Of a stretch of 64,000 nucleotides of DNA, positions 1 to 21,983 are shown piece by piece (the stretch's first letter is position 1; each line of letters starts with the position of its first letter). The stretch lies in NCBI RefSeq assembly GCF_021869535.1, contig NW_026262604.1, positions 34,038,001 through 34,102,000 of the forward strand, given 5' to 3'. Under the pieces are notes generated by a model. It was not told the origin of the DNA. It searched no databases and was given only the letters and a program-made list of their open reading frames with translations. Made by a program: the position numbers and the translations under genes. This DNA is from Mytilus californianus. Taxonomy: Eukaryota.

Positions 1-280
1 GTCAGAATGGGGACGTTAAATCCGATGCCTCGTGTAAAGAGAGTGCCACGCTCTTTGCACGTTAAGAACCCTTGCAACAACTCTTTGAGCGGTCCGTAGG
101 TGACCTGTTGCAAGGCTAAATTTCTGTCCCTATCCGATATACCCTCATTTCCCGTGGCAGTCTAAATTTCTCCGACCTTAATCCCTACCTATTGTATTTA
201 TTGTTAACTTGTTCTCGTCCTGAATATGCATGAAATATTTGCCACTGGACGTTAAGCAACCAACAATCAATCAATCAATC
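1..280 (+). mobile_element. SINE (AATC-tailed family), 3' part, cut by the window start
   Basis: Matches the other copies; ends GTTAAGCAACCAACAATCAATCAATCAATC. Confidence 0.9.
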
Positions 281-507
281 ATATTCAAATAGACTTCTAC
301 AGTAACTCATTTATGCATTTGTTATACAGACTTTCTAACTTTATTTAATTGTCAATTTTATTTATTAATCTTCATCATCACAATTAGTGAATAGATTTAT
401 CCAAATACTACTGTTTAAAAAAATGAAAATCACAGAACCGAATAGTGCTATCTAGGTTTTGTTCTTTTTTTTTACCGCGCAAAAGTCAGAAAAGAATTAA
501 AAACAAC

Positions 508-2282
508 ATGTTTATTATAATTGTTATCCTAGCTCTATCTATTGTTCAAGCCAACCACATCATCTTTGCTGTAAATAGCAAATGTACGAGACTTGGGCAC
601 TCTAATATTTACAAGTGCAGTGAATTAAAGAGTGAGACTTATTATGTTGTGAGTGAAGATGCAAGCAGGATTACATTCAAATGCTTTCGAAGCGACCTTA
701 TCATCCATATTGATCAAGATCAAAATCAAAATTTGCAGAGGATTGATGTACAGTATGGTGTTTGTCCAACAGTTATCACAAATGTAATAGACCTGGTTGT
801 GAAGGTGAACACACAAGATTGTGGAAAAGTACATTCTCATGATTTATGCCAAAAGTTATAAAAACCCACAACTTCATTTATAAACAGTAAAGTTAAGGAA
901 CATAAAGTTTTGAACAACCAAATTACAAAAAGACAGAACCAGAAATTAAACATGCTTAAAATAGACAAAACCTTAAAAAACTCAAGTCAAGATCATACAT
1001 ACAAATAGAGTAAAAGATATATTCATTCATAGAAGTTCAACAACAAAGAACGTATACATGATGTATAAAGAGGTGTTGAGGAGTTGTTTTAAATGTTTCT
1101 ATAATCCCCGTACAAGTCCAGTTTAACAGTCATTTTATAATGTATTTTTCAACATTGAGTTTTTATATTATATCACAATTTTGTAAAGGGATCATTTGCA
1201 ATGAATTTTAATATTTGTTTACAGGAAATTATTTTCACAACTACAACAACCACTCTAAAAAAGAAGACCACAGATGGGACAGTTTATACTACTAATACAC
1301 ATCAAAAACACGAATCATTTTCCGGTACCACAGATGCTTGCACAAACTGCCCCAATCAAGAAGAAATTATTTGGGGGCAGTTATCAACAAATATACAAAT
1401 AATCATTTACGCTGCAATAGGTAAGTACAGTAACATACACATACACATATATGTGGCACAATTTCTACAATGTGTAATATCATTGTAGACAAAGAATTGA
1501 TTTAATACTATACAACAAATTAGACAGTGAAAACAGAGGTCTACAAACCATTTTAAATACAACATAAAATTGAGAATGGAAATGGGGAATTGTCAAAGAG
1601 ACAACAACCCGACCATAGAGCAGACAACATGTATTAAACAACACAATAAAACATTTTTAAAAATGTATTTAGTGATTTGATTGATTCTTATACAGACTGT
1701 CCATTCTCTGAATGTAACAAAAAAAAAAAGATAAAAAGGAAAAGGAAAAAAAGAAAAAGTTACATTTATGTTGTTTTTATATTTTCATTTTCAAAAAAGT
1801 AAATTATATATTTTCTAACTTTTTTGCAGTATGTGCTCCATTATCCGTAATCATTCTCATAATAAGCTGCTGTTTGAAAAGTACTAAAGGAAGGAGATAT
1901 CTTTTGAATTGTCCCCGTGCTTTGTGTAGGGAGGAACAGGAGGTGACTCCCCTGGAAACCCCAATGCAAGGTTTTGGGTATGTCACAAGTGAAGAGTTTG
2001 ACGAGTCAATGTCATCAGTAGAAATCTAATTTATTTGTTTCTTTATGTGTGTGTGTGTTTTTTTAAGCCTATTTACTAAAACTCGTCATTGGACTAGATC
2101 AAGTACATATTCAACCACCATTGATTCACCAGCAAGCAGTCCAACTACAACAACCTACCCACCACCAACAACCAATCCAACAGGTTCAACAACAACCCAT
2201 TCATCAACAACAACCAAGGAGACATCACCAAATAAGGAGACAAAACCAAAGACATCACTACTATCTAAGACCGAGACATTAG
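508..2282 (+). CDS. Spliced type I membrane protein (signal peptide, Cys-rich ectodomain, Thr-rich stalk, TM) with two alternative terminal exons; probable Maverick cargo
   Basis: Exon 1 starts at ATG 508 (MFIIIVILALSIVQA) with a phase-0 GT at 805 or 829. Exon 2 is 1225-1420 (ttacag|GAA...ATA G|gtaagt). Phase-1 exon 3a, 1830-2029, reads VCAPLSVIILIISCCLKSTKGRR...SVEI*. Phase-1 exon 3b, 2068-2282, reads AYLLKLVIGLDQVHIQPP...HHYYLRPRH*. Confidence 0.65.
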
Positions 2283-2356
2283 TCGTCTATGAGCTAAGGC
2301 ATAGAGGAGCTGTTTTGTTGTGATGTGCTATTGTTCTATCAATATTCTAAATTATG

Positions 2357-2778
2357 ATTGATTGTTGGTTGCTTAACGTCCAGTGGCAAATTTTTCATGC
2401 ATATTCAGGACGAGAACAAAATTAACAATAAATACAATAGGTAGGTTCTGTAATAAGGGCGTCCGGGATTAAGGTCGGAGAAATTTGGACAACCACGGGA
2501 AAATTAGGGTATATTGGATAGGGACAGAAATTTAGCCTTGCAACAGGTCACCTACGGACCCCTCAAAGAGTTGTTGCAAAGGTTCTTAACGTGCAAAGAG
2601 CGTGGCACTCTCTTTACACGAGGCATCGGATTTAACGTCCCCATTCTGACCGGACGTGGCTGCAAATTTGTACATCCCCCACAGCCAAACGGACGCCCCA
2701 CTTTAGCAAGGGTTTTACTGCCGGTCGGAGGAAGACCAATGATGACCATACTTCTATACCCCAGTCACCCTTGGGGGT
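2357..2778 (-). mobile_element. SINE, full length
   Basis: TSD TTCTAAATTATG at 2345-2356 and 2779-2790. Confidence 0.92.
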
Positions 2779-3251
2779 TTCTAAATTATGTCATTAATAT
2801 AATTTTAGTCTATCTTAATTTAAGTAAAGAAACTTGTACCTCATATTGTCATCCATATATGTTACTTTAAGTTTGTATGTCTTTTGCTCACTACTGCTCT
2901 ATATGAATTTTAAAGTTCAAAATCTCCATCAATTTTTGCTCCAGGTGGTACAGAAGAAAACCTAGAAATAATTTAAGGACATTATGTATTGTTTACTTCT
3001 TTCCAGTTATGGTTAGCAATCATATACATTATACTTTATAATTCATGAAAATGGATATTTGAAACTCGCATTTCGTTATAAAATTTGAAAGCAGTTCAAC
3101 TATTTTTGACGTAAGCAACAATCCATATTATATATTTGTGTGTGTATACTGTAATTTATTCTGTTATGTGAATCGTTTTGAGTGGACTTATAAACCTTGA
3201 TACTTCGTGATAACATCTATGTAAATTACTATAAGCTTGTCCATCTTTTGA

Positions 3252-3672
3252 ATCCCTAAGAGTGACTGGGGTATAGAAGTATGGTCACCATTGGTCTTCC
3301 TCCGACCGGCAGTAAAACCCTTGCTAAAGTGGGGCGTCCGTTTGGCTGTGCGGGATGTACAAATTTGCAGCCACGTCCGGTCAGAATGGGGACGTTAATT
3401 CCGATGCCTCGTGTAAAGAGAGTGCCACGCTCTTTGCACGTTACGAACCCTTGCAACAACTCTCTGAGGGGTCCGTAGGTGACCTGTTGCAAGGCTAAAT
3501 TTCTGTCCCTATCCATATACCATAATTTCCCGTGGCAGTCTAAATTTATCAGACCTTAATCCCGGACGCCTTATTACAGAGCCTACCTAATGTATTTATT
3601 GTTAATTTGTTCTCGTCCTGAATATGCATGAAATATTTGCCACTGGACGTTAAGCAACCAACAATCAATCAA
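3252..3672 (+). mobile_element. SINE, full length
   Basis: TSD TCCATCTTTTGA at 3240-3251 and 3673-3684. Confidence 0.92.
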
Positions 3673-5715
3673 TCCATCTTTTGATCGTCTTTACTATATT
3701 TATATGAGTTCAAAATCAACATCATATTTTGCTCTTGGTGGTTGTAATTTATTTTGTTATGCAAGTTGTTTTGAGTGAACTTATAAACCTTGCTACTTCA
3801 TGACAACGTCCATGTAATTTACTATAAGCATGATAATTTTGTCATAGTTTGGTCACAACTGCTCTATATTTTATATTAGAGTTCAAAATCAACATCCAAT
3901 TTTGCTCTCGGTGGTACACATTAGGATAATCTTGAAATAATTAACTCCAAAGCACATTTTGCTTCGAGCAATACATGTACGTGTTATTTTTTTCTTATTA
4001 TATACAATTGTGGTTAACAAATACATTCGTAATACTAAATACTTCAAGAACATTTAACAATGGAACTGACATTTTAAACTTTTTTTAAAAAACATAACAT
4101 CTTTATATTCTTTTAATTTTCTTACACAAAAGCAGCATTCCTTATGTACATGTGTATATAGTGTTTTTTTTTATTTTATTGTGGGTTGAAGATAGGATTC
4201 TTGTGTTGTTACTTTACGTTTACAATTGTATAACGCCTTTTTATGATATTCTCAGTATTTACAATTATATAGTCCCCGTTCATGATAAACTCAGGAAAGT
4301 TCATCTTTTTATCTCTTTTTATAAGGATACCCCTCCCCCCTTTTTTTTACTTGGTTGTGAGAGTATTTAACATTTTTAATAGTATAGTAACCTAATATGC
4401 TAAGCAGCATTCCATATGCATGTATGTATGTGATTAGAAGAAAGACTAGTTTTGTTGTTCCTTCGAAGTTGACTATTATACAGTCCATTTTTTGTGATAT
4501 ACTTAAGAAAGTTCAACTCTTAATTTTCCTGTTATGATTCCATCCATTTTATTTTTTAATCTTATCAATTTTTTTTACACATTTTTACAGTACACCATCA
4601 ACATATTTTATTTTGCTTGATTGTTGGATCACTCAAACTATTTTGATATAAAATCTCGATATTCTTTAAATTTTCTCTTCACAAAAACAACATTCCATGT
4701 ATGTATATATCATATTTTACTTCGATTTTGAGATTGTTTTTTTTAATCATGAGAGTATGTTTTGTTTTTACTTTAAAGTTTAAAGTTGTAAAGTCCCTGT
4801 TTTATGATATACTCAAGAAAGCACGTATTTTAATTTTTGTCTATGATTAGACCCATATGAATATATGCATTTATGAACATTTCTTTGAATTTTACACCTT
4901 TTAAAGTAAGATACATAGAATCAGCAAAGATACAAACATTCCATCAACCTATTGGTTTTATTTTCTCAGGGAGAGTTATTGTTTAGAAACACTTTTTAAA
5001 GTATTTCATATAATGTTTTTTGTTTTTTTATACTATAGTGAATAAATAAAATCTATTGGAAGTAATCTTTTATTTTAAGGAACTCACTGACTACCAATAC
5101 CTTCTAAAATATCTCCATCTACTGTTGAGTCTACAAGGGAAAAACAAATTAAAAACAAATGGAAAATAGAACATTACTATTGACCATCGACCAACATGAC
5201 AAAAACTAATGATTGAGAAACAGCTTCGAAATGTTCGAAAGTGTATGCTTTGAAATACTGATAAACTGATGGTCACAAAAGGAAAGAAACATATTAAAAT
5301 GAAAGTCACACTACTCAACATTTCACACTACTAAAAATAATTAATGGAAATAACGTACATTATAAACCCACAACCAACATATGCAGATATGGGTGTATTT
5401 AACAAATCAAATGTCATAGTGCTTTCATATCTCAGTCAAAGGCTGATGTTACTCAATCCTTTTTTCTCTATCATGGAGTTATTATCATATAATTATCGAC
5501 CAATGACACAATTGTGAAAAAGATAAAACAAAAGATTGTGGCACAGCTTTGAAATGTCCAAAGGTGTGAGCTTATGGAAGCATCAGATGCTATAATGCTT
5601 CTATCATAACCATAGACCAATACCCCTCAATTACATTTTCTATAACATTGACTTTAATCAATATTTTTTTTATTCATATATGGAGGAGAACACTTACCAG
5701 GTAAGTTATCACGCT

Positions 5716-6063
5716 TCATGCAATCTGTAAATCTGAGACCCACGGAGTGGGAGGATCTCTATTTTGAGAAGGTGATTCAACATTGAAGCTTTCCCCTCCA
5801 TCTGAATCCGAAATTATGATGGGATTGTTTGGAGATCCCATTTCCACACAATCGACAATATTAAATGGCTTGTGAGTAATAAGTCCCCCATCATGAGAGG
5901 GCACATCATTGTCTGAGATGATAATGGGTTTTTTTGAAGTTCCTATTTTATCATCCGATGTAATTTCACTATTGTAATCACTGTCACCTAAGATTAAAAA
6001 TGATTGGAATTCTGCTGCATCCGGACTCATCATTATGGCGCTGTTTTGGGTAGTAGATTGCAT
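5716..6063 (-). CDS. Acidic Ser/Asp-rich protein with two SIM-like PIIISD motifs; probable Maverick accessory gene
   Basis: 115-aa ORF containing KKPIIISDNDV and NNPIIISDSDGGES; divergent from the 6661 gene across a TATA-containing spacer. Confidence 0.5.
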   Translation of the reverse strand: MQSTTQNSAIMMSPDAAEFQSFLILGDSDYNSEITSDDKIGTSKKPIIISDNDVPSHDGGLITHKPFNIVDCVEMGSPNNPIIISDSDGGESFNVESPSQNRDPPTPWVSDLQIA

Positions 6064-6660
6064 TTCACAAGATTATATATATAGTTGTTAATAATTCCTT
6101 CAGGAAATTGGACTAGTCATTAGAATTCATAATGGTTTGGAAGTTGATACTTGTCATGTATTGGGGCTATATATATATATGACTTATGATGTGATCTTAT
6201 TTAATCAACTGGATGTGTGTGTCCATAGTGTTTTATTTATGATAACTTGGTAGGGTTAAATATTCATCGCTGTGTATGAATGAATGGAATACATCTCAAA
6301 CATTGCAGCTACTATAAACACAAAAAAATAAAAAAAACTTCACAATTCTAACCCGTATGAAAGTTAAAAAAAAATAATAATAAGGAAGTAAATTGTCGAG
6401 GAATGGTAAAGTTTGGGTGTGATGAAACAAATCATATTACAAGTACTCGTGTAAAGATATCAACCAGTGAAAGTCTGATTTGAATAGTCAACACCGAAAA
6501 AAGGACGTAACCACTAAAATACTCATAATAGTACACCAATGAAAAAGTTTGTAATCACTCTGACAAAAAAGATTATGTTCTCAAACCAATATAAATACAG
6601 CCTCAAAAGTCAGTTATCTCAACCATTTCAAAAAAAAATAAAAAACAACCAACAAACAAC

Positions 6661-7254
6661 ATGAATGTGCTCACAACCATCACCAACGGTACTGCTATTT
6701 TGAGAATTAGTGGGACTTTTGGGGCGAGCAAGACTGTATCAATCAACAGTTTTGGCGGCATTACATATTTACATCTGAGGACGCCGAAGAAAAACTGGGC
6801 AGGGTGGAAAAGCTTCACCATGAGTGTCAGTGAATATAAAGAAATGATTAGGATGGTTAGCTCAGACCATCTTTCAAATATTGCCGAGAAGTTTGATGTT
6901 CAGGTAAGGTTTTGTTTTTTAATTCATGATAATTTTGGAGAAAATGGTTAAAAAGTTAACTCCATGTGGATTTCATACATGTTTCTCTGAAATTGTACTC
7001 TCTCAAAAAAATTTCATATACTAGATTGTTTTCATGTGTGATGTGTAACTCTTTGTTGCTAACATTAAACCATTTGATATTATATATTGTAGAACAGGAC
7101 AGAACGTGTGATCGAGGAGGCAGCGTTCAGAGCAGCAGGCAGTGGGGAAGACGAAGCGGAACCGTCAGTAGGGGTATCAGCGGAGACGTCCGAGCTGGTC
7201 CGAATGCCTCCAATGAAGAGGCTAAGGTCAGAAAAGAACCCCAAAATGGTTTAG
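6661..7254 (+). CDS. Spliced PC4-like ssDNA-binding protein (134 aa)
   Basis: Exon 6661-6903 (KTVSINSFGGITYLHLRT...KSFTMSVSEYKEM, PC4-like pattern) ends CAG|gtaagg in phase 0. Acceptor ttgtag|7093 gives an open acidic tail with PPMKRLR, then TAG at 7252-7254. Confidence 0.6.
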
Positions 7255-7664: not shown

Positions 7665-10661
7665 TTGCTGTAAAGGAAAAAAATTGTTACTTTTTTGTTT
7701 ATTTTTTTTTCACATATTATTTATCTAATATGAATTCGGAATTTTGACTAAGCATATTGTATAGGTTTTTTTTTTGTTTGTTTCTTAGACAGAACACTTT
7801 TTTTTCATATGGATATATTGTCCTCATTTAAAAAAAAAGATCTTTATTCATTTATAAATCCTCATACATACGCATACATATTTTGTGTGTGTGTTTATGT
7901 TTTTGTTTTGGTTTTTTTGCTAAAAAAAAAAAGTAGAGATTTGTACAGTGTCCGAAGTCTAACATGTTCAAACTATTGTTCATCATATAGCGTTTAAAGC
8001 TGCACTTTTCACAACAACCATCTTTAGTTAATTTTTTTTTCTGCTCAAGGAAAATATTCATATGGTGTATTATTTATCAACTAAGTCCTTGATCTTAAAG
8101 TGTCCGAAAGCTAAGGTGTCCACACTATTGTCCATCACATAGCGTTTGTCGTCAAATGCGCTTAAAGCTACCTTGTTCACACTGACCATCTGTAATTTAT
8201 GCTTTCTAGATTGAATAAAATTTTGTTGACGTCTCACATTTTTCTGTTTAATGATACATTTAATGTAATTTGAATGTTTCAGTTCCCGTCTGACTACGGA
8301 TTTTACTATTCCTTTGGCTCTCTTTTGTTCGACATCTCCATATGTCAAAGAATACATTTTGCTCCTCAAACCAACAAATTGTTTGATGGGCACACCTCCA
8401 GTTTCATCCTTGAATAGCCCCGGTTTCTTTGCATAGGTCTTGTCGAAGAGAAAATGGTTCTTGTCATAGTTTGAAAAATCAAACAAATGTTTATCTTTTT
8501 CCATGTCTGAGTATATGTCTTTTGTTTTTACATGATAAAGAAAGGAGTCTGTATCCGTCATCATCAATTTAATGTCTTTACCATACTTAGGAATAACATA
8601 ATTATAGTGGTATTTATACATTATACACTTTGAAAGTTCAAGCACTGACAAACCGATTGCGATTGGCTTATTCAATTTCAACACAACTTTTTTACACTGA
8701 ACACCCACGAGGTCTTTGGTGAAAATTTCACATCTCACAAAAGATGATTTGGCCACCTGCTTCAACACTTTTTTCTTAGTGTGTATGAGTTGTACATCTA
8801 CTCTCTTTCGGACGTTCCCAATCGTCTTCCCAAAAACCGCATTATTCATTAATTTATAGAACGATTTTTCAAAATCTCCTTTGGCAGACTTACGTCTTTG
8901 TGTATTTAACTCAATATATTCACGTAGAAATGGTGACTGAGAAAATTCTAACACTTGATGAACCCTGTTCAACTTCATACCAAGTTGTAAATACAATTGA
9001 AGATTTCGGTAGTGGCATACATATCTTCTTTTGTTTTCTAATGTACACAATAATTTATTCGTTTTTATCCTCGATCGACCTTTTAAATGACCTTTCTGCT
9101 TTGATGGATTCAACTTGTTCCATAGCTTTTGACTATATGGAGACAATATTTCATCGGACACCGATTTACTTTCTGGTGCCAGTGGATAGTCCGAATGCAA
9201 ATTATGAAGTTCAGTCGGGTAGTCCAAGTCCACCTCCAATATAAAGCCTTCATCATTACATTCTCCCACATTCATTATGTTTAAGTTATTACGTTCATAC
9301 TCATTCAAGAACTTAAAATCTCCAGTTGGAAGTGGCATACTAAGAGCGAGACCATACAAATTGTTACAGTCTTGATAAATTAGGTATGAACTCTCCTTTT
9401 CATGATCATATGTATTTCTAAGGTGTTTGTTGTTTGCAGTGGCCAGTCTATTGGAAATTTATGAAATACCACCACGCAAACCTGATTCAATAAAGAGATA
9501 GGCCTCTGCATTGTCCTCGGTGATTAGTTCCAATTTACAACCAGACAATTTCAATGCAGCACTCCATGCCAGACCGGGGCAAGTATAAAAATGGGACGGA
9601 TCTAGACCATAAGTTTCCATGCATTGATTTCGAAATCTTTCAAAAACACCATTTAAAAGTAGCACATCCGACTTCAGGTATAAGTCATGATAGGAGCCCA
9701 TATCATCAATTCCGAAAGCGTCCCAAACTTTCTTAACATGTTCATAATCCTCATCAGTGAGATGGCTTTTTGTCAAATCATCGTAGAAAGCATCTTTTGG
9801 AGGTAGACAATTCATGGAAAATTTTTCTTCCTTGTCCATGTATGAATAGGGGTACACACCCTTTCGTAACAAAAGTGATCGCCGTTCATTTGAGGGAAAT
9901 TATCTAATCAATGCTTTGAAATGTTTAGGATCTTCTTTTGCCAAATCGTCCACAAGATGGGATAAACTACTCGGCAAACACTGATAACTGTCCACAAATC
10001 TAAGAGACCCCAGAGAAAACGACACATACCTTTCCATGTTGTTAGGAATACAATTAATCTTTTTACCCTTAAAAAGTCCCACACCCTGCATCAGAAGGTG
10101 GCTGTCAAACCCCCGAAGGTTATGAAAATAAACGGGGATGTAATCTGGATGTTGAAAGTTCAGATTACATGAATTATGTGCAGCCCCTCTATATTTTCCT
10201 GAAATGTGCGAGTGGTCTCGAACTTAAATCGAGGATTGTTCAAATGATTTGCTACATATGTGACAGTTAGTGCTCTCCCTAAATGTCTGCTCGTCTTCTG
10301 GTGTCATTTGTAGTGGTTCTATTTTATCGAGAACATGTTTAATATATTTCTCTTCTTCGAATAGGTTTTCAAGTAAGCGCTTACATGCATTCAGTCCCCT
10401 GTAGAAGACCGGTGCCTTTGAATATTGCTCGGTCTCACACACTACTTGATAACCATAACCACAGGCTTCGTAATTGGTAGTCGCCGTTGAACTAGGTTGA
10501 TTTGGGTTGGGATAACATGTGTCAAGCGAACAGGCAAATGCTTCAAAATCACAGTAAATGACAAATGGGACTCTCATCTGTTTTGAATAATCATCAAATT
10601 CGACTATGTCTTCTCCGCTATCCTTAACTGGAAACTCTGCATGTTGGGCATCATGCTTTGA

Positions 10662-13600
10662 TTGATTGATTGATTGTTGTTTGCTTTACGCCGCATTAGC
10701 ACAGAAAGGCTATATCGCGGCGAGAGCTAATTCGAATATTATAACAATTTAAGGTATATTTTTAAAATCAGACAAAAGGTCTTTCAATAAACTAAAATTC
10801 TAGACTAAAGCAAATTGATTATTTACAAATAAAAATCAACACTAAGATAACGTGATAAAAATTGAAATCGTTTTAAAATTGAAATCGTTTTAAATATAAC
10901 AACATTTTTATATTTTATAATATATTCCAATTTCTTTTAAGAATGAAACAATATTTGTAAATGGAATATTATTAAATAAATCATACATATTATTGACATT
11001 GAAATGCTTCTTTCGAATATCAGCAAAGTCAATACAATTGATTAAAACATGTTTAATAGTATACTTGCAGTTACAAGGTATACATTGTGGTTCTACTTCA
11101 TTTTTTAAAAGATATTCGTGTGTTATTCTAGTATGACCAATACGACATCTAGAAATAACACACTGATCTTTTCTGCACATAAAATTATTGAAAGGTTTAC
11201 ATAAATTAGGTTTAATTTCATGTAATTTATTACCATCTTTTTTACTCCATTCATTTTTCAATATATTAAAAACATATTCTCTAATATTAGATTTAAAATC
11301 GGTATATGGTATATCACAGTTAGATAAAGGGTCACCCAGGGCATTCTTTGCCTCAAGGTCTACAGCTGTGTTTCCAAGGATTCCAACATGACTCGGCACC
11401 CATAGAAATAATATTTCTTTAAGAAGAATTTTTAAATTCCTCATTACATATAAAATTTTGAGAATTGTTGGGTTTTTAATTTTAGTATTTTGTATAGCTT
11501 GTAAGCATGAAAGTGAATCAGAACATATAATAAATTTGGATTTATCTGAAGAAGCAATAAATTTCAAAGCCAAAATTATTGCTTCTGCTTCAGCAGTAAA
11601 GATCGATGCATCAGATGGCAAACGGAGAGTTGCAGCTCTGTCCCTGAAGACAGCAGCAGATGCAACTCTGTCACCATCTTTTGATCCATCAGTATAGACA
11701 GTTGAAAAATCTGAATAATTGGCTTTGATTTCAGCATAGTGTTGCTGAATTAAAAGAGGATTTGTTTTATTTTTATTGTGTTCACGGAGATCAAATATCA
11801 TTTTTGGTTTGGGAAGTTCCCATGGAGGACATTTGCAAGTTTCAACTTGAGCAACAGATTTTAAATCAAAAGAAGCTAAATGTGGTTTTAAACGTATACC
11901 TAACGGAGGAATTTTATTTTCATGTTTTGCAAAAATATCTTCATAAATTGGATTAAAAACACAGCTGTAGGCAGGATTATCTGAGTAGGCTTTTAGTTTG
12001 ACAGCATATTGAAGTCCAAGCTTCAAACGTCTGTTAGAGAGTGAGTGCTCATCAGCCTCTACATACAGACTCTCAACTGGTGAGGTTTTAAATGCGCCAA
12101 GACAGAGACGCAAACCCTGATGATGCACAGCATCGAGAATCTGTATGTAGGACTTCCTTGCAGAGCCATACACTATAGAGCCATAATCTAGTTTAGATCT
12201 AACTAGAGATCTATATAAATTAAGTAAAATGTTGCGATCAGCACCCCAGTCGGTGCTGCCGACAACTTTTAAAATATCTAATGCTTTTAAACATTTCGAT
12301 TTTAACATTTTGATATGGGTTAGAAAGGTTAACTTTTTATCGAAAATTAACCCAAGAAATTTGGTTTCATCAACCATTTTAATTGGGTTGCCGTACAAAG
12401 TGAGTTCTGGATCAAGATGCAATTTCCTTTTGTTACAAAAATGCATCCCGACCGTTTTTGAAATGGAAAATTTAAACCCATTTTCCGAGGCCCATTTTTC
12501 AATTCTTCCAAGACATAACTGTAATTGTCTTTCTATGTTATTCATATTTTTGCCTCTATAACATATTAAAAAGTCATCAACATACAATGAACCTTCAATA
12601 TTACTTTTTAAAACTTCAACAAGGCTGTTGATTTTGAGACTAAATAATGTAACAGATAAAATACTGCCCTGAGGGACACCCATCTCTTGATCATACAGAT
12701 CAGACATGGTTGAATTTACTCTAACATTAAATTGTCTGTTAGATAAAAAATTCGAAATAAAATTTGGCATATTGCCTTTCAACCCCATATCAAACAGATC
12801 TTTTAAAATACCATACTTCCATGTAGTATCATAGGCTTTTTCTAGATCGAAAAAGACCGACACTACATGTTCATTTTTCGCAAAACCATTACGGACAAAT
12901 GATTCGAATCGAACAAGATGGTCAAGAGTACTGCGACCTTGGCGGAATCCACACTGGATATTGGCTAAAAGCCCATTGGATTCCAGGAACCAAACAAGGC
13001 GATCATTAACCATCCGTTCTAGTGTTTTACAGACACAACTGGTTAGAGCAATTGGCCGATAATTAATAGGATCCGTGTGATCTTTACTTGGTTTTGGAAT
13101 AGGCACGACGGTTGCAAGCTTCCAGATTGATGGTAAATCACCAGATTCCCAGATGTTATTCATAAGCTGCAAAAGAGCTTCCAGCGAGGAATCTGGCAAG
13201 TGTTTTAACAGTTGGTAGTGAATATTATCAGGCCCACAAGCTGTATCATGGGCTTTTGATAGAGATGTTTTAAGTTCTTCAAGAGAAAAGAGTTTATTAT
13301 AATTTTCACCATTTTTTGATTTAAAGTTTAATTTAATTTTTTCTTTTTGTTTTTTAACTTTTTTAAAATCTTCCCTGTAGTTGTTAGAAGAAGAAGATTT
13401 CGCAAAAGTTTCACCAAGCTTGTTGGCAATATCCTTTTCAGATGTTAATAAATCATTGCCATTTTTTAAATGTTTAACTGTGGCTTTAGAATTTTTACCT
13501 TTTATCTTTTGTATCATGTTCCATACTTTTGTCATCGGAGTGCGAGATGTTATCTCCGAGACAAATTTCTTCCAAGACGTTCGTCGTGCTTGCCTGCAAG

Positions 13601-14328
13601 TCCGCCGTGCCTTAGCGCGAAAAACACGGAAATTACTCAAGTTTTCTGTCGTTGGTTGTTGGTTGAACCGTTTTTCAGATTTTTTACGGTCACCTATTGC
13701 TTGATCACAAGCATCATCAAACCATGGTTTGCTGGGATGTTTCGGATTTGCCGAGGTCTTAGGAATAGTTCTGTCAGCAATTGACGTTAAAATTGTATTA
13801 AAAGTTAAAATTGGATCTTGTACAGTCTCAAACATCTTTGACTGAAGTTCCGCTTGACAGAGATTCTCAAACAAGGACCAATCCGCCTTGTCAAGTTTCA
13901 AACGTGGTACTCTCTGTTGGGCAGAAGTAAAAAGATGTTCAAGTACTATTGGAAAGTGATCACTTCCACATAGATCATCATGAACACGCCATGAATAATC
14001 CAGAAGAAGAGAGGGATCGCAAATAGTGATATCAATAGCAGAATAAGACCCGTTTCCAGGATGAAGATAAGTATTAGATCCATCATTAAAAATGCATAAT
14101 CCTTCTTGAGAGACAAAGTCCTCAATGATCTTACCTTTGATATTATGAGACTTGCTTCCCCACAAGGGGTTGTGTGCATTGAAGTCGCCCATAAGTATAA
14201 ATGGTGAGGGTAATTGATCAGTGAGGTTTTTGAGTTTAGCTTTATCTATAATTGAATTGGGTGGAATATATATAGAACATAATGTAATTGTTTTATCTAA
14301 TGATAAACGAATTGCAACTGCCTGCAGA
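10662..14328 (-). mobile_element. Nimb/I-clade non-LTR retrotransposon, 5'-truncated, with RNase H
   Basis: 13-bp TSD CATCATGCTTTGA (10649-10661, 14329-14341); 3' tail of (AATC)n; uninterrupted ORF2. Confidence 0.95.
10908..14328 (-). CDS. LINE ORF2: truncated APE endonuclease, reverse transcriptase, RNase H and C-terminal Cys/His motif
   Basis: GDFNAH and GSDHFP (endonuclease); GVPQGSILS and LYVDD (RT); YTDGS, TAEAEAI, CSDSLS, WVPSHVGILGN (RNase H); CIPCNCKYTIKHVLINC. The frame is open upstream of the annotated Met as far as the TSD. Confidence 0.95.
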
Positions 14329-15416
14329 CATCATGCTTTGAACAATATCTGATGTGTTTTTCTAACACTCTTTGAGAGGTGAAACCCCTTAAACAGTAGC
14401 GGCAAAATTTGTATGCTCTTCCGCTATTTTTTGTTCTTGACAATAATCTATTTGAATGTTTAATATAACAATAGTGGGTGTCACCTTCTTTTGTGAGATA
14501 TAACAAGTCCACTTCATGTTTCTTACCTTTGTGTTGACTGATATATATAGGAAAGAATTCATTGTTCTCATAACCAAGAACATTGATAGATATATCGTTT
14601 TGATTCTCAAATTTTGGAATTTGTTTTACTTGTACTGGGTATGAAATACCACTCATATTCAGTTCCTTTTCATATCTGATGTATTGTGATATTCGATTTG
14701 CATTCTTTGACTTTGTATGAATATGAGCAAGAACGGACAACAGAAAGCATTTCTTGTCATCGTTTTTTATGTTAATGATAGCATGGCTTTTCTCTAAAGT
14801 TTCAGGGATTCTAAAATATGACGACCCACCTATCGGTCGAAATTGAATGGTATTTAGCTCCATGTTTATCACCTGCTTCAAAGTCCAACCCGATCCTCGA
14901 GCGATGTATTCATCAAACGATTTGAACTGTTTCTGAAACGCTTCATTTATGTCATCATCTTTAATGTCAGTTTTAGATAGTAATATATATGAGTTGCTTT
15001 TAAAATAGGGACGACTATTATCCACCTCACCCTCATTCGTCTCCCGCGATAATTCAACATGTACATTGATATACCATTTCAGGTGTATCACTTTGTTACA
15101 TCTCTCTGCAAGCGCGTCCTTCAATTTTTGTCGAATGTTTGAGAAAAATGTCAATAGATCATATTTGTCCTCGTCTAATGGACGAATAGTGAATACATGG
15201 ACAGCATCTTCCAGTGCACTCTGTACTGAGGTTTGGTGGTTGAGTATGTTCACATTACCCCCGTCTGCATGGGATGTATAGTTTTAGAGTGGTCAATTAG
15301 GGTGGTATAGTCTTTAAACCCTACTCCACAATGTTGACAGCTGTATGTGTTATTGTGTGATATGTATCCTACTAAATGTCCTCTTTCATCTCGCTGTAAT
15401 GAATCTAACTCTGTTG

Positions 15417-16037
15417 ATTGATTGATTGATTGTTGGTTGCTTAACGTACAGTGGCAAATATTTCATGCATATTCTGGACGAGAACAAGTTCACAATAAAT
15501 ACAATAGGTAGGTTCTGTAAAAGATTAAGGGATTAAGGTCGGAGAATTTTAGACTGCCACGGGAAATGAGGGTATATTGGATAGGGACAGAAATTTAGCC
15601 TTGCAACAGGTCACCTACGGACCCCTCAAAGAGTTGTTGCAAGGTTCTTAACGTGCAAAGATTGACTGATTGTTGGTTGCTTAACGTCCAGTGGCAAATA
15701 TTTCATGCATATTCAGGACGAGAACAAATTAACAATAAATAAAATAGGTAGGTTCTGTAATAGAGTCGTCTGGGATTGAGGTCGGAGAAATTTAGACTGC
15801 CACGGGAAATGAGGGTATATTGGATAGGTACAGAAATTTAGCCTTGCAACAGGTCACCTACAGATCCCTCAAAGAGTTGTTGCAAAGGTTCTTAACGTGC
15901 AAAGAACGTGGCACTCTCTTTACACGAGGCATCGGATTTAACGTCCCCATTCTGACCGGACGTGGCTGCAAATTTGTACATCCCGCAAAACCAAACGGAC
16001 GCCCCACTTTGACGAGGGTTTTACCGCCGGACGGAGG
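15417..16037 (-). mobile_element. Two tandem SINE copies (15417-15660 is a 3' fragment; 15661-16037 is near full length)
   Basis: Two GATTGATTG tails; junction GTGCAAAG|ATTGACTGATT; no shared TSD found. Confidence 0.88.
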
Positions 16038-16483: not shown

Positions 16484-16819
16484 ATTTTGAAAAAAGCTCG
16501 AAGGATGATTGGTAATTCCCCACTAATTTTCAGCAACCTCTTTTTTCTGAGACGTTTAGAAATTGATTCTTCAATTGAGACCTCTAATACTGTCTTTTTG
16601 TAGTGATAAGACGTCTTTATACTTCTTTGAAATGTGAAATCTACTTTTGATCAAGTTGTATATTATTTCCACTAGAAATTGAAGTTGTTGCTCTGTTAAA
16701 GTTTGTAAAATAACGCTCCGTTGATCTTTGTCACACACCGTTAAAAACTTTAAAACCTGTCTGTCAATCGTTGTCAGGTTTTTCTTCATTTTTTGGACGA
16801 AATACAATAGTGTCTTCAC
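16480..16819 (-). pseudogene. Small basic/amphipathic Maverick virion-type protein, one frameshift
   Basis: ORF 16571-16819 continues in another frame as IEESISKRLRKKRLLKISGELPIILRAFFKI*, with the TGA overlapping the next ATG at 16480-16483. Confidence 0.5.
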
Positions 16820-17480
16820 CTGGAAAAATTCTGGTGCGAAGTGAATATAACTTTTCTGTTTTTGGATTTAAATCTGCCATTATATATCGAGAGAATGACA
16901 TTGCTATGATAAAAGAGTCTAGAAAGTACTTTCCCTTGTGAGGAAATACCTGTCTTCCAAAACGAAGTATCTGCTCCGAATCGCGTTTATTTTCAAAGAG
17001 AATATAGTAATGCATGTTTGAACTAAGAGTGCGCATAACTTTTCCTTTCTCATAAATGTAGTGACTAACCAGACACACAGTTATATTGCGATGGTGTGAT
17101 GAAACGAATATGAGTTCTTGTGCCCACCTATCGTTGGCTAAATCATGTAACAAGTCATCCAAAACGCAAATCATGTGTCGTCTGTCGTCTCCACGAGCTT
17201 CCATTAAATCTTCCTTACTCGGTATACCTTCATGAAACATAATACCGTCTATAGAACGTTGCATTTCGGTAAAAATTGGTTGCTAAACACTACCATAGCA
17301 GTATAAATGGAAGATGGAACGTTTTTGAACATTAATTGAGCATTTTCTAACAGTCGTTTAATAAACATTGTTTTTCCAGAGTTCGTTGGTCCACATAACA
17401 TGATTAATGTTGGTGTTTCAAACTGCAACACCGGTGTTTCATCTTCAAAATCTATGTTTTGTATATCCACCTGTGCAATA
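16764..17480 (-). pseudogene. Maverick packaging ATPase (FtsK/HerA-A32 type), frameshifted
   Basis: Walker A CGPTNSGKT and Walker B ICVLDDL in adjacent frames; SRHxN-like SHHRNITVCLVSH. Confidence 0.9.
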
Positions 17481-17936
17481 TGGAAACGTATTTCTAATGA
17501 CATCGAAAATGAATAAATCATTGTTATTATAATCATTTGAGAATGGACAAACAATTTCATTCATCGGAACTGCTTTACATCTATTTACTAAATAATACAT
17601 ACAATAATATCCACATGTTTCGGAAACTGTACTTTGGAGTCGTTCATCATTATATAATAAATTGAGATTGTTTGCAGCAAAAAAGTCATGAAATAGATTT
17701 GAATAAAAAGACGGCTTTAGTCCATAACTACTAAAAAATTCACCTCTGCAACCTGAAACGTAAAAAGCAACCCAGTGCTTTCCAGCACCACTTTTTCTGT
17801 CTCTATTAATGATGAAGGCGATATGGGATGAGGAAAAATGCCACTTGGGTATTTCATCCGCTGAAAATATTCCAATTACTTGTTGTGACATATTTCGATA
17901 ACAGTTCACCATACATCGAATAGTATTAGTATCCAT
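17445..17936 (-). CDS. Adenain-like cysteine protease
   Basis: GKHWVAF, EFFSSYG, LQSTVSETCGYYC (His, Gln and Cys present; expected Asp reads Ser). Confidence 0.9.
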   Translation of the reverse strand: MDTNTIRCMVNCYRNMSQQVIGIFSADEIPKWHFSSSHIAFIINRDRKSGAGKHWVAFYVSGCRGEFFSSYGLKPSFYSNLFHDFFAANNLNLLYNDERLQSTVSETCGYYCMYYLVNRCKAVPMNEIVCPFSNDYNNNDLFIFDVIRNTFPYCTGGYTKHRF

Positions 17937-19269
17937 CAGAATTTAAAATGACGTTTCTTGACTGGCTAATTTCAAAATATCCCTGTCTTTCAGCAAGAAC
18001 TATACAGTTAACGGTGTGTGGTAGCGCGACATTAAAAGCTGCATCTATTCTCAAGCTTCTTTGCTTTTTTGTTTTTTCAATGATAAATATTCATTTCCAT
18101 CAAAATCAGGTGTTGTGTCAAACGAATACAAAGCACAACCGCCAGGTATGTCATCTTTACTAATTTCGATACCCTCATCATTTAACCATTTACGGGTGGT
18201 CATTAACAGATTTGACAGCACTTCCATCACTGTGTAACCAGTCGTATTGTTATAGCTAAGCTGTAATGGACCCCCATTCACCGGTATACCATTCACACTG
18301 AGACCTATTTGACTCGATTGGTAATTTTGAAAATTACAGGGATTTCTTGTGAGATTACCCACACCTGTGGCTTCACTGTTGACAAAAGCGATTATGAGAT
18401 TGTTTGGGCAGCTGTCCTGACACACATAATTCCACGAAAAGTTCCAAGGTTCCCTTTGCTAACGTCATGGAGGCGATTTCTGTTTTCGTATATGGGTACT
18501 TGGCATTTGTCGAATTAAGCAGAGCGTTGTGTGCAGTAATAACGGCGGGATTGACTTGTATTTTACAAACTTTCAGCGTCATTTCTTGAATGTCGATTTT
18601 ATACTTCTTCGCCTCGTTGCTAAGTAAAGGAAAGTTGGCCTTAGAGCGATGAAATCTTATGCTAACACCAACCTGATTTAGAATATATCTTCTTACTTGA
18701 AATAGGTCGTGCATTATTGGACCCTGCAAATCAAGCAGTTTTGATCCCCTTATGCATGCCATCCTCACCATTCCATTGGTGTTATCTCCATTTGTAAAAT
18801 CCACATCATTAAAATGTCACTTTGTGTCCTTTAACCATAGCTGAGTTGAAAGTTGTGACTGTTTGGCATCGGATCCATATCGCAAAAGGGTTTGAATGTA
18901 TGCTGTGTATGGATAATATCCAGAAGTAGTAGATAAAGCTTTTCCCTTTATGCTCACGTCAATCAGTGAAAACAATGATTGCATAAATAGATTCACAGGA
19001 GCTACATTCTCATCTGCTGCAAGGACTGAATTGTCATCATGTAGCACCCGTAATTTAACATGGATCTGACTGTTAAAAAGATCTAAATACTCCAAACCGT
19101 TCTGACTAGAAATATCAAATAATATTGGGGACGAATCTGTAATGGTTGAGGTTGGTCTAACGTTTTCCATTCTAATACTTTCAACTCCCACTTGCGTAGG
19201 TGGAAGATCAAAAAGTGACAGTTCAGACGGTTGTTCCTCTACAAAGAATTGTTTATTGAGCATAGCCAT
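17935..19269 (-). pseudogene. Maverick major capsid protein (double jelly roll), several frameshifts
   Basis: N-terminus SELSLFDLPPTQ...YLDLFNSQIHVKLRV; GPIMHDLFQ; NPCNFQNY...GLSVNG; LYSFDTTPD; spread over ORFs 18817-19269, 18373-18804 and 18051-18425. Confidence 0.88.
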
Positions 19270-19278
19270 TTCAAATAT

Positions 19279-19743
19279 CTAGTTAAAAATATCACTGCCG
19301 TGACTTCTTGACTTCTTTTTAAAAGTATCACTGTTGTGTTTTCTTGACCTCTTTTTCTTTAACAATCGTTTTCTGGACTTCTTTTTATTTGAATTTTTAA
19401 TCCTCAAATGTCGGTGTTTAATCTCTTTTCTGATAGATTTAGATTTGTGTTTCCTTTTAGTACCCTTCTTGACATGCGTCTTGTGGTCAATGTCTGTTGA
19501 CGCTTGTTCTACAACGGCCTGTGCGGGTGAAATGATTTTAACAGGAACATCACTCACTTCCATCTGTGAGGGTGTATTCTTTTTATTATACTCTATAAGG
19601 GTAATAAATGTCTTTGCCCCACTGACTAAAGATCCTCCTCTCTGGTTTTGATGTTTACCATTCAATGTGTGTTTATTTATGGTGTCTTGATAATACTTTA
19701 TCCACTTTGTTACATTGGGAACATACAAGTAGGAAACATCCAT
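19279..19743 (-). CDS. Lys/Arg-rich putative core (DNA-condensing) protein with a QRGG motif
   Basis: 154-aa ORF with NQRGGS and a very basic C-terminal half, located between mCP and MCP. Confidence 0.6.
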   Translation of the reverse strand: MDVSYLYVPNVTKWIKYYQDTINKHTLNGKHQNQRGGSLVSGAKTFITLIEYNKKNTPSQMEVSDVPVKIISPAQAVVEQASTDIDHKTHVKKGTKRKHKSKSIRKEIKHRHLRIKNSNKKKSRKRLLKKKRSRKHNSDTFKKKSRSHGSDIFN

Positions 19744-19759
19744 TTCAAAAATATGTCGT

Positions 19760-20110
19760 CTAAAGAAAAAATGGATACTGTCGAAAATGTAACGTTAACG
19801 ACACTGGCTTCTTCATGAATGATGGAGTTTTTAATTTGCTGTCTAATATAAAGAACTCGATGTCAAATATTTGTGTGTTATTTATTGATAGATAATTCGG
19901 TGATTCGTATTTGTGAATCCAGTTTCCCTTTTTATTACACTGCAATGAACGGAGTATCGGTTGTCTCTGTCCTCCATTGACAATGGAATAATCCACCAGA
20001 TCACACAACACATACAAACCACCCATGTACATAGTTCTATTATTTTCTTTGACGTGTATCTCAGTAAATGCATCTTTCCAAATATTGTCAAGTTGAATAG
20101 GTTCTGCTAG
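19760..20110 (-). pseudogene. Minor capsid (penton) C-terminal fragment
   Basis: LYVLCDLVDYSIV...PILR...PNYLSI...IEFFI...VSLTLHFRQYP pattern; much shorter than a full penton. Confidence 0.7.
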
Positions 20111-20212
20111 GTGGATTTGGAAATTCGTTGGAGCATTGCCTGGAAACTAAGTTATATTTTGCTTCGAGTCGCTGTCTATAAACAAGAAGAAACTGCTATT
20201 GAAAGACATATT

Positions 20213-21342
20213 TTACAGATTTTTAACATCTGACTCATCAACCCAGGAATTGAATCGTTCCGAATATCCCAACCACTTCACAAAATACTGAACTTTTTTG
20301 TTCCTTTTCCTTTTCTTGATGATTTTTTCAATCTCCCATAATGCATCTTCTGACTTATTCAGGGGTTGAAGTTCTGAAGTATAGAAGTTCCCAAGAATTT
20401 TTTTTTCTTGTAAATCTACAAGTTTAAACATTGAAAAACCCTGTATTTGAAATCGCGTATATATCTTGAATACCTCATATGACCATTGTTCATTATAGAC
20501 ACGTTGAAAAGGTCTGCGTTGATGTGCAATACTAATTGATTTTTTTTATATTTATACAAAGTTCTTCTTATAGCTTTCTTCTTTTTCTTAATAGTTGTGA
20601 TATGTTGTCTTTTACGTCTTTTATCATGTCTCAAATACATGTAGGCCCAGAGATTTGCCGCATTGTTTGCGTTAACATCTCTAGGTGCTATGTTATTCAA
20701 TGACCTATGTGGAGTGGCATTGTATGACTTCACCAAATCCTGTAGTGAATCAATATATCTTTTAGACTTGTGTTTTGCTAAATATCTATATATCATGGAT
20801 TTTAAAGTTTTATTCAATCTTTCCACATAGTTTGCTTTCATTTCAATTAAAGTAATATGATAGTATATATTTCTATCTTTTAATAACTTTATAATCCATT
20901 TGTTCTTGAATTCAGTCCCTGCGTCACTTCTAATTTTTTTTGGAGACACTTTATCGAGAATGATTGCCAAAGCTTTCTCAACTTCTTTCCCAGTCTTATC
21001 TTTCAAGGGCACAACCCAAGCAAAGCGGGAGAACAAATCTACTGCAACGAGTAAGAATCGGATACCATCATTGTCTTTGTTTAATGATTGCATGTCAGCT
21101 AAATCAATATCTAGTTGTTCTTTTGGGCCTGACACAACAACCCTAGCTCTCTGAAATCGTCTACGAACAGGTTTTTGTAAACTGTAATCATCTTGATTTT
21201 GCAACCATTTTCGTATCTTGTGAATGCCTATTTTATCATTAACATCAACTTTTAAAACTAATTTTATTTTCTCTGCACCCTGGTATGCTGCTGGTTTTGA
21301 TTTGTTATAGTACTTAGTATACATTGGATAATGTTTTTTCAA
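20213..21342 (-). pseudogene. Maverick retroviral-like integrase with C-terminal chromodomain, frameshifted
   Basis: LDIDLADM, VAVDLFSRFAW, IRSDAGTEF, VERLNKTLK; chromodomain WEIEKIIKKR...YFVKWLGYSERFNSWV. Confidence 0.92.
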
Positions 21343-21353
21343 CCTGATTCATT

Positions 21354-21746
21354 TTACTGGTAGTGTGTTAAAATGTCGACGGCTTCTCTTATTCTAAGTT
21401 CCATTAGCTGCTTCTCCTGGTTGTTTTCAAACCACCAATTCCAGTTAAATGATTCACTAAATTCTTTTGCGTTTTCGGTTGGAATATCAAATTTTTTAAT
21501 GTTTTTGATGAGCAGATCGGGTATTTCATCATGATTGATTTTCTGAATAGCCTCCTCAAAATGAAATATTAATATTTCATTATCTGTGAGAGTCAAACAA
21601 TCATTGTAAAGCTGATTTGATTCATTATATTGGCAACCTAAACATCTTTGTGCGTTGATTGTTCTACAAATTCCCCAAACTTCCCGTGCGTATGTGAAGA
21701 TCAATTGTTTCCTTATCCGACGATTAATTTCTACTTCATCCGTCAT
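21354..21746 (-). CDS. Maverick terminal hypothetical protein (CxGC motif)
   Basis: Intact 130-aa ORF between INT and the terminus. Confidence 0.55.
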   Translation of the reverse strand: MTDEVEINRRIRKQLIFTYAREVWGICRTINAQRCLGCQYNESNQLYNDCLTLTDNEILIFHFEEAIQKINHDEIPDLLIKNIKKFDIPTENAKEFSESFNWNWWFENNQEKQLMELRIREAVDILTHYQ

Positions 21747-21983
21747 CCCTCAAGGCAATTAGCTAAACTACAATCACAAGAGTAATCACGACTTTAAATA
21801 GCATTATCTTTCAATTTAGAGTTTTCTTTCTTTAAACAGATTTTATAACGATACAACAAGTTCAATCATGTTGTTGGAATGTTGGAATGTGTGGATGGCA
21901 TACCACAAATATTTTTGTAAACAGTGTAAAACGAAGGGGGAAAATCACGTGACATGGGCTAGAGACATCCATTTTCCACTACT

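What the first reader, a model, noticed from the sequence alone, without database searches (positions are those of the whole stretch)
1..21983. Near-complete Maverick virus-like genome with both capsids and an 8-kb spliced accessory arm
Seen: full morphogenesis set (MCP, mCP, protease, ATPase, basic core), INT and pPolB with viral-style ATGA gene overlap and an AGTAGT end. The left 8 kb carries intron-containing genes on both strands. Because Gypsy integrase resumes right at the terminus and no upstream Gypsy sequence occurs in 1-8000, those genes are inferred to be cargo. Their predicted themes are membrane protein, SUMO binding, ssDNA/transcription and Cullin recruitment. This resembles an adenovirus-like early host-manipulation region, which is poorly described for mollusc Polintons.
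Basis: partly seen in the sequence, partly recalled or inferred. Interest (0 to 1): 0.7.

Follow-up and report, generated by a model that had tools for sequence, protein, structure and literature searches.

The report
Mussel Maverick's alternatively spliced regulatory arm
A decayed virus-like jumping element in a mussel-type genome carries, inside its own ends, three intron-containing genes shared with related elements; one is spliced in two ways in transcript-like data from a related family, and another is predicted to be spliced into a DNA-binding protein that likely recruits the host's protein-destruction machinery.

Summary
The arm is real cargo. The left TIR lies 1,568 bp upstream of the window (103 bp, 97% identical to the right one). 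TATGTC flanks both ends, and the interrupted Gypsy integrase reads on across the insertion. The element is 23,552 bp, but this copy is decayed: a LINE splits pPolB, and ATPase, MCP, mCP and integrase carry stops or frameshifts. Three diverged Maverick families here carry the same arm in the same order. Gene A is a type-I membrane protein with two alternative tails; both splice forms appear in RNA-like contigs of a sister family. Gene B is an acidic two-exon protein with SUMO-binding-like motifs. Tandem acceptors 5 nt apart (12 of 16 loci) would give a short PC4-like protein and a long PC4-like/VHL-box fusion from a dual-coding exon; no RNA junction was seen for it. An Elongin C complex prediction gave weak support (0.57; best control 0.01). 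Intron-bearing Maverick cargo is known from nematodes. A conserved, alternatively spliced regulatory cassette was not found in my searches. Functions are inferred, and the window copy's own expression is untested.

The parts
1..21983 (.). Maverick/Polinton copy (begins 1,568 bp upstream of the window; G000:C24:34036432-34059983; 23,552 bp with nested repeats)
21880..21983 (-). right terminal inverted repeat (103 bp, 97% identical to the left TIR upstream of the window)
21984..21989 (+). 6-bp target-site duplication TATGTC; Gypsy integrase resumes here
508..861 (+). gene A exon 1: signal peptide plus small Cys-containing domain; in-frame stop at 859-861, splice donor unresolved in this copy
1225..1420 (+). 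gene A exon 2: Ser/Thr-rich stalk and first half of the transmembrane helix; phase-1 donor GTAAGT
   Evidence: matching intron spliced in sister family
1830..2029 (+). gene A exon 3: second half of the helix, Cys/basic then acidic tail (isoform 1)
   Evidence: sister-family joint 1347-1858
2068..2282 (+). gene A alternative exon 4: second half of the helix, Gln/Pro-rich tail ending in a basic motif (isoform 2)
   Evidence: sister-family joint 1347-2089
5698..6063 (-). gene B exon 1: acidic protein with two IIISD (SUMO-interaction-like) motifs; frame break near its 3' end in this copy
5084..5130 (-). gene B predicted mini-exon 2 (acceptor TTCCCTTGTAG shared with sibling copy and sister family)
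6661..6903 (+). gene C/D exon 1: PC4/Sub1/Pur-like domain, phase-0 donor after Gln
7093..7254 (+). gene C/D exon 2, first acceptor: short acidic/basic (NLS-like) tail (predicted short isoform)
   Evidence: P0039
7098..7664 (+). gene C/D exon 2, second acceptor (+5 nt): overlapping frame running into a helical domain with BC-box/Cul2-box-like motif at about 7275-7385 (predicted long isoform)
8070..15414 (-). pPolB-like gene, broken (LINE insertion, frameshift, 3 stops)
10662..14326 (-). nested LINE (endonuclease, RT, RNase H-like)
16737..17464 (-). packaging-type ATPase, broken
17448..17936 (-). adenain-like protease, open frame
17944..19269 (-). putative major capsid protein (label by size and position, not tool-confirmed), broken
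19279..19743 (-). basic core-like ORF, open
19760..20200 (-). putative minor capsid protein (label by size and position), one stop
20219..21324 (-). rve integrase (chromodomain in the sister copy), one frameshift
21354..21746 (-). conserved ORF of unknown function next to the right TIR
1..279 (+). SINE-like host repeat inserted in the arm (further copies at 2355-2779, 3251-3678, 15415-16037)

Best explanation
This is a decayed copy of a Maverick (Polinton) inserted into a Gypsy element, and its left arm is the element's own spliced cassette, conserved across diverged families, that likely acts on the host cell through a two-tailed membrane protein, a predicted SUMO-binding protein and a PC4-like gene predicted to be spliced into a short form and a long form that would recruit an Elongin BC-Cul2 ligase. 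SHOWN: boundaries and TSD; shared gene order across families; purifying selection on gene C/D; GT-AG splicing and two alternative 3' exons of gene A in a sister family. INFERRED: host Pol II and the spliceosome express the arm from the integrated or nuclear element. Alternative 3' acceptors double the products of a small genome. The short C form (PC4-like plus NLS-like, often a terminal SIM-like motif) would bind single-stranded or melted DNA. The long form would bring a Cul2 ligase to such DNA-bound complexes and remove host factors that restrict the element. Gene B would bind SUMO, and gene A would act at a membrane. The window copy itself is probably inactive.
For: BOUNDARIES. SHARED ARM: a sibling copy with both TIRs shares arm DNA at 71-85% up to window 6095. 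Two further families (core DNA 73-83%; arm DNA mostly not alignable) have the same order A, B, C/D, pPolB. GENE A: on the sister-family arm (L070), GT..AG joints 502-905 and 1347-1858 appear in 5 of 6 RNA-like contig runs, and the alternative joint 1347-2089 in 2 of 6. The same phase-1 intron splits the helix in the window (KD19 2.74 and 2.08 for the two forms). GENE C/D: an unbiased acceptor scan and targeted scans find AG|AAYAG in 12 of 16 loci. The +5 frame runs into the helical domain in 8 of those 12, and in 4 of the 8, the window included, no Met precedes the BC-box-like motif in that frame. In one search the +5 frame is open across exon 2 in 7 of 8 loci (codon-shuffle null 0.001-0.16). 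A public Mytilus coruscus model (P0001) joins exon 1 to the +5 frame and the helical domain; an M. galloprovincialis model (P0039) uses the first acceptor. pN 0.16-0.47 against pS 0.57-0.85 in all 25 pairs. PC4/Sub1/Pur-alpha recur among the top fold hits (Foldseek prob 0.84-0.97 but E 0.4-1.0; VIA Z 5.0-5.7, rmsd 3.2-5.3 over 59-71 residues), and Pfam PC4 scores E 0.013-0.025 in 3 of 24 homologues. The BC-box plus Cul2-box pattern (Cul2 box from PMC3355856; BC-box pattern recalled) matches 5 of 7 sequences against 0.2-0.8% of shuffles. Complex with Elongin C: score 0.57, best control 0.01; runs agree in at least 86% of contacts; partner pLDDT at least 67. That mark was reached by 51 of 78 solved and 2 of 108 mismatched pairs.
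Against: No read was laid on the window copy; all RNA evidence is from a diverged sister family, and those runs are only guessed to be RNA, with no DNA control laid. No joint was listed for the C/D intron in any of 8 runs. Contigs of X1 and X2 contain intron sequence, and raw run X22 (38 reads) covers introns without joints. The +5 frame is interrupted in 4 of 12 loci and no acceptor was found in 4 of 16; loci are related, so counts are not independent. Searches looked for the tandem pattern by design. Fold matches are below significance (pLDDT 65; the D model is 50 and gave no clear fold). The complex score lies in the band (0.60 or under) reached by only 5 of 78 solved complexes and by all 4 mismatches that passed. 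It used a stand-in Elongin C and may reflect memory of solved VHL/SOCS complexes. SIM-like motifs exceed shuffles in the window and sibling (p 0.03, 0.003) but not in the two other families (0.18, 0.11). The sibling copy lacks gene C/D. Gene A's exon-1 donor is unresolved in the window copy.
Confidence: 0.66

Rival explanations
1. The arm is real spliced cargo, but C and D are two separate genes, and the second AG and open frame are by-products of a purine-rich exon.
For: No RNA junction to the second acceptor was seen. Some copies have a Met just before the helical domain (L082/L083, L091). The exon is poor in T, so alternative frames open more easily (codon-shuffle null up to 0.16).
Against: There is no in-frame Met before the BC-box-like motif in 4 of 8 open loci. 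The residue after Asn is always AG-initial (Arg or Ser) across families. P0001 uses the second acceptor. X5 contigs stop at the donor (6177) and start at 6409, as two acceptors would cause, though a SNP could too.
Confidence: 0.2
2. The arm is host DNA captured by chance and carried along as passenger, like nematode wasp/krma cargo, with no role for the element.
For: The introns look host-like. Pieces of gene A DNA (window 929-1559 and 1863-2349) occur at 75-80% identity on small contigs; no Maverick core matched within the 40-kb stretches fetched for 5 of them. The sibling copy lacks C/D.
Against: Gene order and intron phases are kept across families whose synonymous sites are saturated. No Pfam family passes its cut-off for any arm protein. 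The PC4-like profile finds only 31 proteins among 1.84 billion, and the 3 named representatives of the 10 looked up are unnamed Mytilus models. 14 of 34 C/D loci show a core gene within about 1.5 kb; several others are the same elements seen with a shorter flank.
Confidence: 0.1
3. The spliced arm has been domesticated by the host; its expression serves host functions rather than the element.
For: Spliced gene A contigs appear in 6 of 6 RNA-like runs from three coded organisms, while only X2 of the 4 runs laid over pPolB shows broad cover there.
Against: Those runs were chosen for holding the arm, so they cannot rank genes. Copies sit at different sites with different TSDs and decay by nested insertions.
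Confidence: 0.04

Closest known systems
Nematode Mavericks with intron-bearing cargo (wasp, krma; bioRxiv 10.1101/2022.07.12.499685, passages read)
   Same: A variable region beside the left TIR with intron-containing genes, next to intronless core genes.
   Different: There, 2-5 kb with one host-family gene next to the integrase. Here, 9.6 kb with three genes downstream of pPolB, no known family, conserved order, and alternative 3' acceptors.
Vertebrate Mavericks (PMC8097293, passages read)
   Same: AGTAGT-type ends, 6-bp TSD, size range 12.7-24.6 kb, accessory regions flanking the core, most copies degraded.
   Different: That paper saw no introns in genes of intact elements. The core there usually forms two opposed modules; here all core genes are on one strand.
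Adintoviruses and their Oncoid genes (PMC8502044 section 3.2 read; PMC11071296 passages)
   Same: rve integrase with C-terminal chromodomain; motif-defined host-manipulation genes proposed.
   Different: Oncoids are defined by LxCxE/CXXC and lie typically upstream of PolB. Here there is no LxCxE, the arm is downstream, and the genes are spliced.
Adenovirus E4orf6/E1B55K and other viral Elongin BC-Cul2/5 adaptors (PMC3355856, passages read)
   Same: Predicted BC-box recruitment of a host cullin ligase by a nuclear DNA virus.
   Different: No homology found. Here the predicted adaptor is fused by splicing to a PC4-like domain; E4orf6 has no Cul5 box and uses a separate substrate-binding partner.
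PC4/Sub1 and Pur-alpha ssDNA-binding domains
   Same: Four strands plus helices; recurrent top fold hits; weak Pfam PC4 hits in homologues.
   Different: 10-15% identity, matches below significance, binding untested.

Membership tests
Maverick/Polinton | Terminal inverted repeats with AGTAGT-type ends | tested here: met
   103-bp TIR, 97% identical; left end differs at its first base
Maverick/Polinton | 6-bp target-site duplication | tested here: met
   TATGTC on both sides, Gypsy frame continuous
Maverick/Polinton | rve integrase | tested here: met
   rve E 5.9e-9 in the window; rve plus chromo in the sister copy
Maverick/Polinton | Protein-primed family B polymerase | tested here: inconclusive
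   1,296-aa homologue in the sister copy with C2H2 fingers and endonuclease VII; no Pfam PolB hit at E 0.05; polymerase-type motifs such as DTDS are visible, their naming is recalled
Maverick/Polinton | Packaging ATPase and adenain-like protease | tested here: met
   Peptidase_C5 E 1.5e-4, over cut-off, in the sister copy; P-loop with weak FtsK and Pox_A32 hits
Maverick/Polinton | Double jelly-roll MCP and single jelly-roll mCP | tested here: inconclusive
   440-aa and 150-aa ORFs in the expected region; no profile, PDB or viral-contig hit; not folded
Intact (potentially active) Maverick copy | All core frames open | tested here: not met
   Breaks in pPolB, ATPase, MCP, mCP and integrase
Adintovirus | [quoted passage not shown] | tested here: inconclusive
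   No OTU hit in Pfam for the N-terminal 530 aa; no reference hexon was available to compare
Oncoid / E1A-like gene | LxCxE motif, upstream of PolB | tested here: not met
   0 of 8 exon translations carry LxCxE; the arm is downstream of pPolB
VHL-box (Elongin BC-Cul2) adaptor | BC box followed 8-23 aa later by phi-P-x-x-phi-x-x-x-phi | tested here: met
   5 of 7 sequences match, shuffles 0.2-0.8%; the residue before the BC-box Leu mostly departs from the recalled consensus
VHL-box (Elongin BC-Cul2) adaptor | Binds Elongin C | tested here: inconclusive
   Weak support, 0.57 against best control 0.01, stand-in partner
PC4/Sub1/Pur ssDNA-binding fold | Strand-strand-strand-strand-helix fold matching PC4/Pur | tested here: inconclusive
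   Top recurring hits but E 0.4-1.0, Z 5.0-5.7, model pLDDT 65
PC4/Sub1/Pur ssDNA-binding fold | Binds ssDNA as a dimer | not testable with these tools
   needs a binding assay
SUMO-interacting protein | Hydrophobic core flanked by acidic/Ser residues, binds SUMO | tested here: inconclusive
   Motif above shuffles in 2 of 4 sequences; binding untested

The most novel reading that the evidence does not exclude
Mussel Mavericks have evolved, independently of adenoviruses, a conserved spliced regulatory region. In it, one gene uses two acceptors 5 nt apart and a dual-coding exon to make both a PC4-like DNA-binding protein and a PC4-like Cul2 E3-ligase adaptor, and a second gene makes one ectodomain with two inner tails. 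Polintons would then run a small-DNA-tumour-virus-style programme of host control through alternative splicing.
Probability: 0.4. Interest if true: 0.8.

Novelty: new variant of a known kind. Interest (0 to 1): 0.62.

Why it matters
Maverick core genes are described as intronless, and their accessory genes are mostly unexplored. A cassette kept in order and under purifying selection across diverged families, with alternative splicing seen in a sister family, suggests these elements express host-directed proteins as nuclear viruses do. It gives concrete tests (two junctions, one ssDNA-binding domain, one Elongin-binding motif) for the open question whether animal Polintons have a virus-like life cycle. 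ORF-only annotation would miss or mis-split such genes.

Tried and rejected
Left TIR near 8 kb: rejected. Single-sequence search with the PC4-like exon found no relatives at near length. PDB sequence searches with profiles A2 and A3 gave 0 hits. The Atlas held no window sequence, and P0001 gave no usable hit. The D-domain model was too poor for a fold call (pLDDT 50; best Z 6.7, generic helical). BFVD gave no significant hit. PHROGs gave only one weak unknown family for exon 1. No relative of the putative MCP in viral contigs. Supplements of PMC4028283: 4 files held as text, no motif hit; the capsid FASTA (.doc) could not be seen and bears on the MCP/mCP labels. No holder on record as RNA was listed; raw run X21 gave 0 reads, which is no test. 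A small hydrophobic ORF near the left TIR did not match P0039's N-terminus. The recalled foamy-virus chromatin motif was not found spelled out in PMC9040877, so the likeness of tail 2 to it stays recall. Literature searches for a prior description: (listings and abstract starts), with passages of 10 papers: PMC8502044, PMC10748475, PMC8097293, 10.1101/2022.07.12.499685, PMC3355856, PMC11131425, PMC4028283, PMC11071296, PMC8363768, PMC11296320. 'Polinton' with 'PC4' gave 1 paper (listing only). None that I saw described an alternatively spliced Polinton cassette; subscription journals are not covered.

Full report
BOUNDARIES. A search of the own genome with the right end found a second, inverted match 1,568 bp upstream of window base 1. 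It is a 103-bp TIR, 97% identical to the right one, preceded by TATGTC, the hexamer that follows the right end. The flanks are two halves of one Gypsy integrase frame. The element is G000:C24:34036432-34059983, 23,552 bp, of which about 3.7 kb is a LINE and 1.9 kb SINE-like copies. The host is likely a mussel; this is inferred from named Mytilus homologues.

CORE. Using open frames of a sister copy as queries, all core genes are present on the minus strand, but most are broken. pPolB has the LINE, a frameshift and 3 stops; ATPase a frameshift and 2 stops; MCP 2 frameshifts and a stop; mCP a stop; integrase a frameshift. Protease and the basic ORF are open. Integrase, chromodomain, protease and P-loop are supported by Pfam. 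MCP, mCP and pPolB had no naming hit, so those labels rest on size, position, visible motifs and recall.

THE ARM IS SHARED. A sibling with both TIRs (C24:44.006-44.024 Mb) shares arm DNA at 71-85% up to window 6095 and lacks 6096-8445. Two further families, with their own TSDs where checked, align over the core at 73-83%. Their arms are mostly not alignable as DNA, yet hold the same series: signal-peptide gene, acidic minus-strand gene, PC4-like exon, helical domain, pPolB end. Synonymous sites are near saturation while replacement sites are not (pS 0.57-0.85, pN 0.16-0.47; 25 of 25 pairs).

GENE A. In three families the layout is: signal peptide and Cys domain, a Ser/Thr-rich exon, a phase-1 intron inside the transmembrane helix, then a Cys/basic tail, followed by a Gln/Pro-rich frame. 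That frame has its own acceptor in the window and in the sister family. From the sequence I expected this acceptor to give a second tail. On the sister-family arm (L070), joints 502-905 and 1347-1858 (GT..AG) were seen in 5 of 6 RNA-like contig runs (X1, X2, X3, X5, X12), and 1347-2089 in 2 of 6 (X5, X6). Of 2 raw RNA runs, X22 gave 38 reads without joints and X21 none. The runs are only guessed to be RNA, no DNA control was laid, and a fourth joint (AT..CA) looks like a genomic deletion. In the window copy exon 1 has an in-frame stop at 859-861 and its donor is unresolved.

GENE B. A minus-strand acidic ORF with two IIISD motifs, a donor at 5697 and a 47-nt second exon whose acceptor sequence is shared with the sibling and the sister family. 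The window copy has a frame break near the end of exon 1. SIM-like motifs beat shuffles in 2 of 4 sequences. No splice joint was seen for it.

GENE C/D. Exon 1 (6661-6903) has 19 hits in the genome; I examined the 16 best. An unbiased scan placed a phase-0 donor after Gln and acceptors 200-730 nt downstream. Targeted scans found AG|AAYAG in 12 of 16 loci and none in 4. The first acceptor gives a 47-69 aa charged tail in 11 of the 12. The second, 5 nt on, opens a frame that reaches the helical domain in 8 of 12 loci; it is interrupted in L085, L087, L090 and L094. In the window, L081, L084 and L086 no Met lies in that frame before the BC-box-like motif, so the domain needs the splice. Public models use either acceptor: P0001 the second, fused to the helical domain, and P0039 the first. 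These are automatic predictions. RNA did not settle it: no joint in 8 runs, and intron sequence in X1 and X2. X5 contigs end at the donor and start at 6409, a weak hint. Exon 1 folds (pLDDT 65) as four strands and two helices; PC4/Sub1 and Pur-alpha recur at the top but below significance, and Pfam PC4 is weakly hit by 3 of 24 homologues. The helical domain carries a BC-box/Cul2-box pattern in 5 of 7 sequences. A predicted complex of residues 1-70 with an Elongin C stand-in gave weak support: 0.57, best control 0.01, contacts agreeing at 86% or more, partner pLDDT 67 or more. The mark was reached by 51 of 78 solved and 2 of 108 mismatched pairs, but scores this low came from only 5 solved complexes and all 4 false passes, and like complexes have been solved.

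MECHANISM. Shown: cargo status, conservation, and splicing with alternative 3' exons of gene A in a sister family. Inferred: the arm is transcribed and spliced by the host; alternative acceptors double its products; the short C form binds single-stranded DNA; the long form would bring Elongin BC-Cul2 to remove host restriction or silencing factors; B would bind SUMO; A would act at a membrane. I put cargo at 0.98, two gene A isoforms in this group at 0.9, the C/D fusion at 0.72, the PC4-like role at 0.7, Elongin recruitment at 0.55 and SUMO binding at 0.5.

COMPARISON. Accessory regions are common in vertebrate Mavericks, where no introns were seen in intact elements (PMC8097293, passages). 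Intron-bearing cargo beside the left TIR is described in nematodes (10.1101/2022.07.12.499685, passages). Motif-defined Oncoid genes are described upstream of PolB in adintoviruses (PMC8502044, section 3.2). The arm fails the Oncoid test and shows no adenovirus homology; it may work like an early region without being one. Searches showed no report of an alternatively spliced Polinton cassette or of a PC4-like/VHL-box fusion.

VERDICT. A real feature and a new variant of a known kind. The window copy is a decayed witness; the interest lies in the family-wide spliced cassette, above all the predicted dual-acceptor gene. Interest 0.62.

Noticed in passing
G000:C24: 14 of 19 hits of the PC4-like exon lie on one 66-Mb contig, so this Maverick group seems concentrated on one chromosome-scale piece (counts are lower bounds).
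   Followed up: no
L030-L037, L039 (contigs C92, C128, C109, C102, C127, C164, C139): Pieces of gene A (exon 2 with flanks, or exon 3 region) occur at 75-80% identity on small contigs; no Maverick core matched in the 40-kb stretches fetched for five of them; in C128 and C92 they lie beside degenerate tandem arrays. Relic or donor is unresolved.
   Followed up: partly
G000:C24:41404000-41411000 (L076-L077): A second, different Polinton-like gene set (421-aa capsid-like ORF, ATPase-like ORF) lies next to a copy of this group; labels recalled.
   Followed up: no
L082, L084, L086, L087, L092: Short-isoform tails of the PC4-like gene end in SIM-like hydrophobic-acidic motifs in these five loci; the window copy's tail does not.
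   Followed up: partly
L095, L109, L112: In some copies the C/D gene neighbours ATPase/protease, mCP or the pPolB start instead of the pPolB end, so its position varies between families.
   Followed up: no
window 2790-4850: AT-rich stretch with short degenerate internal repeats, shared and expanded in the sibling copy; no convincing gene found.
   Followed up: partly
window 41805-45826, 46880-47450, 53428-53974: 71-bp tandem arrays (56.7 copies in the largest) explain the strong GC skew at 42-46 kb.
   Followed up: no
L070, run X22: All 38 raw reads lie in one orientation and cover introns; sense or antisense was not calibrated.
   Followed up: no
G000:C89:3756888-3785193: Several broken, repeated copies of genes B and C/D without a matching Maverick core in the 60 kb fetched.
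   Followed up: no
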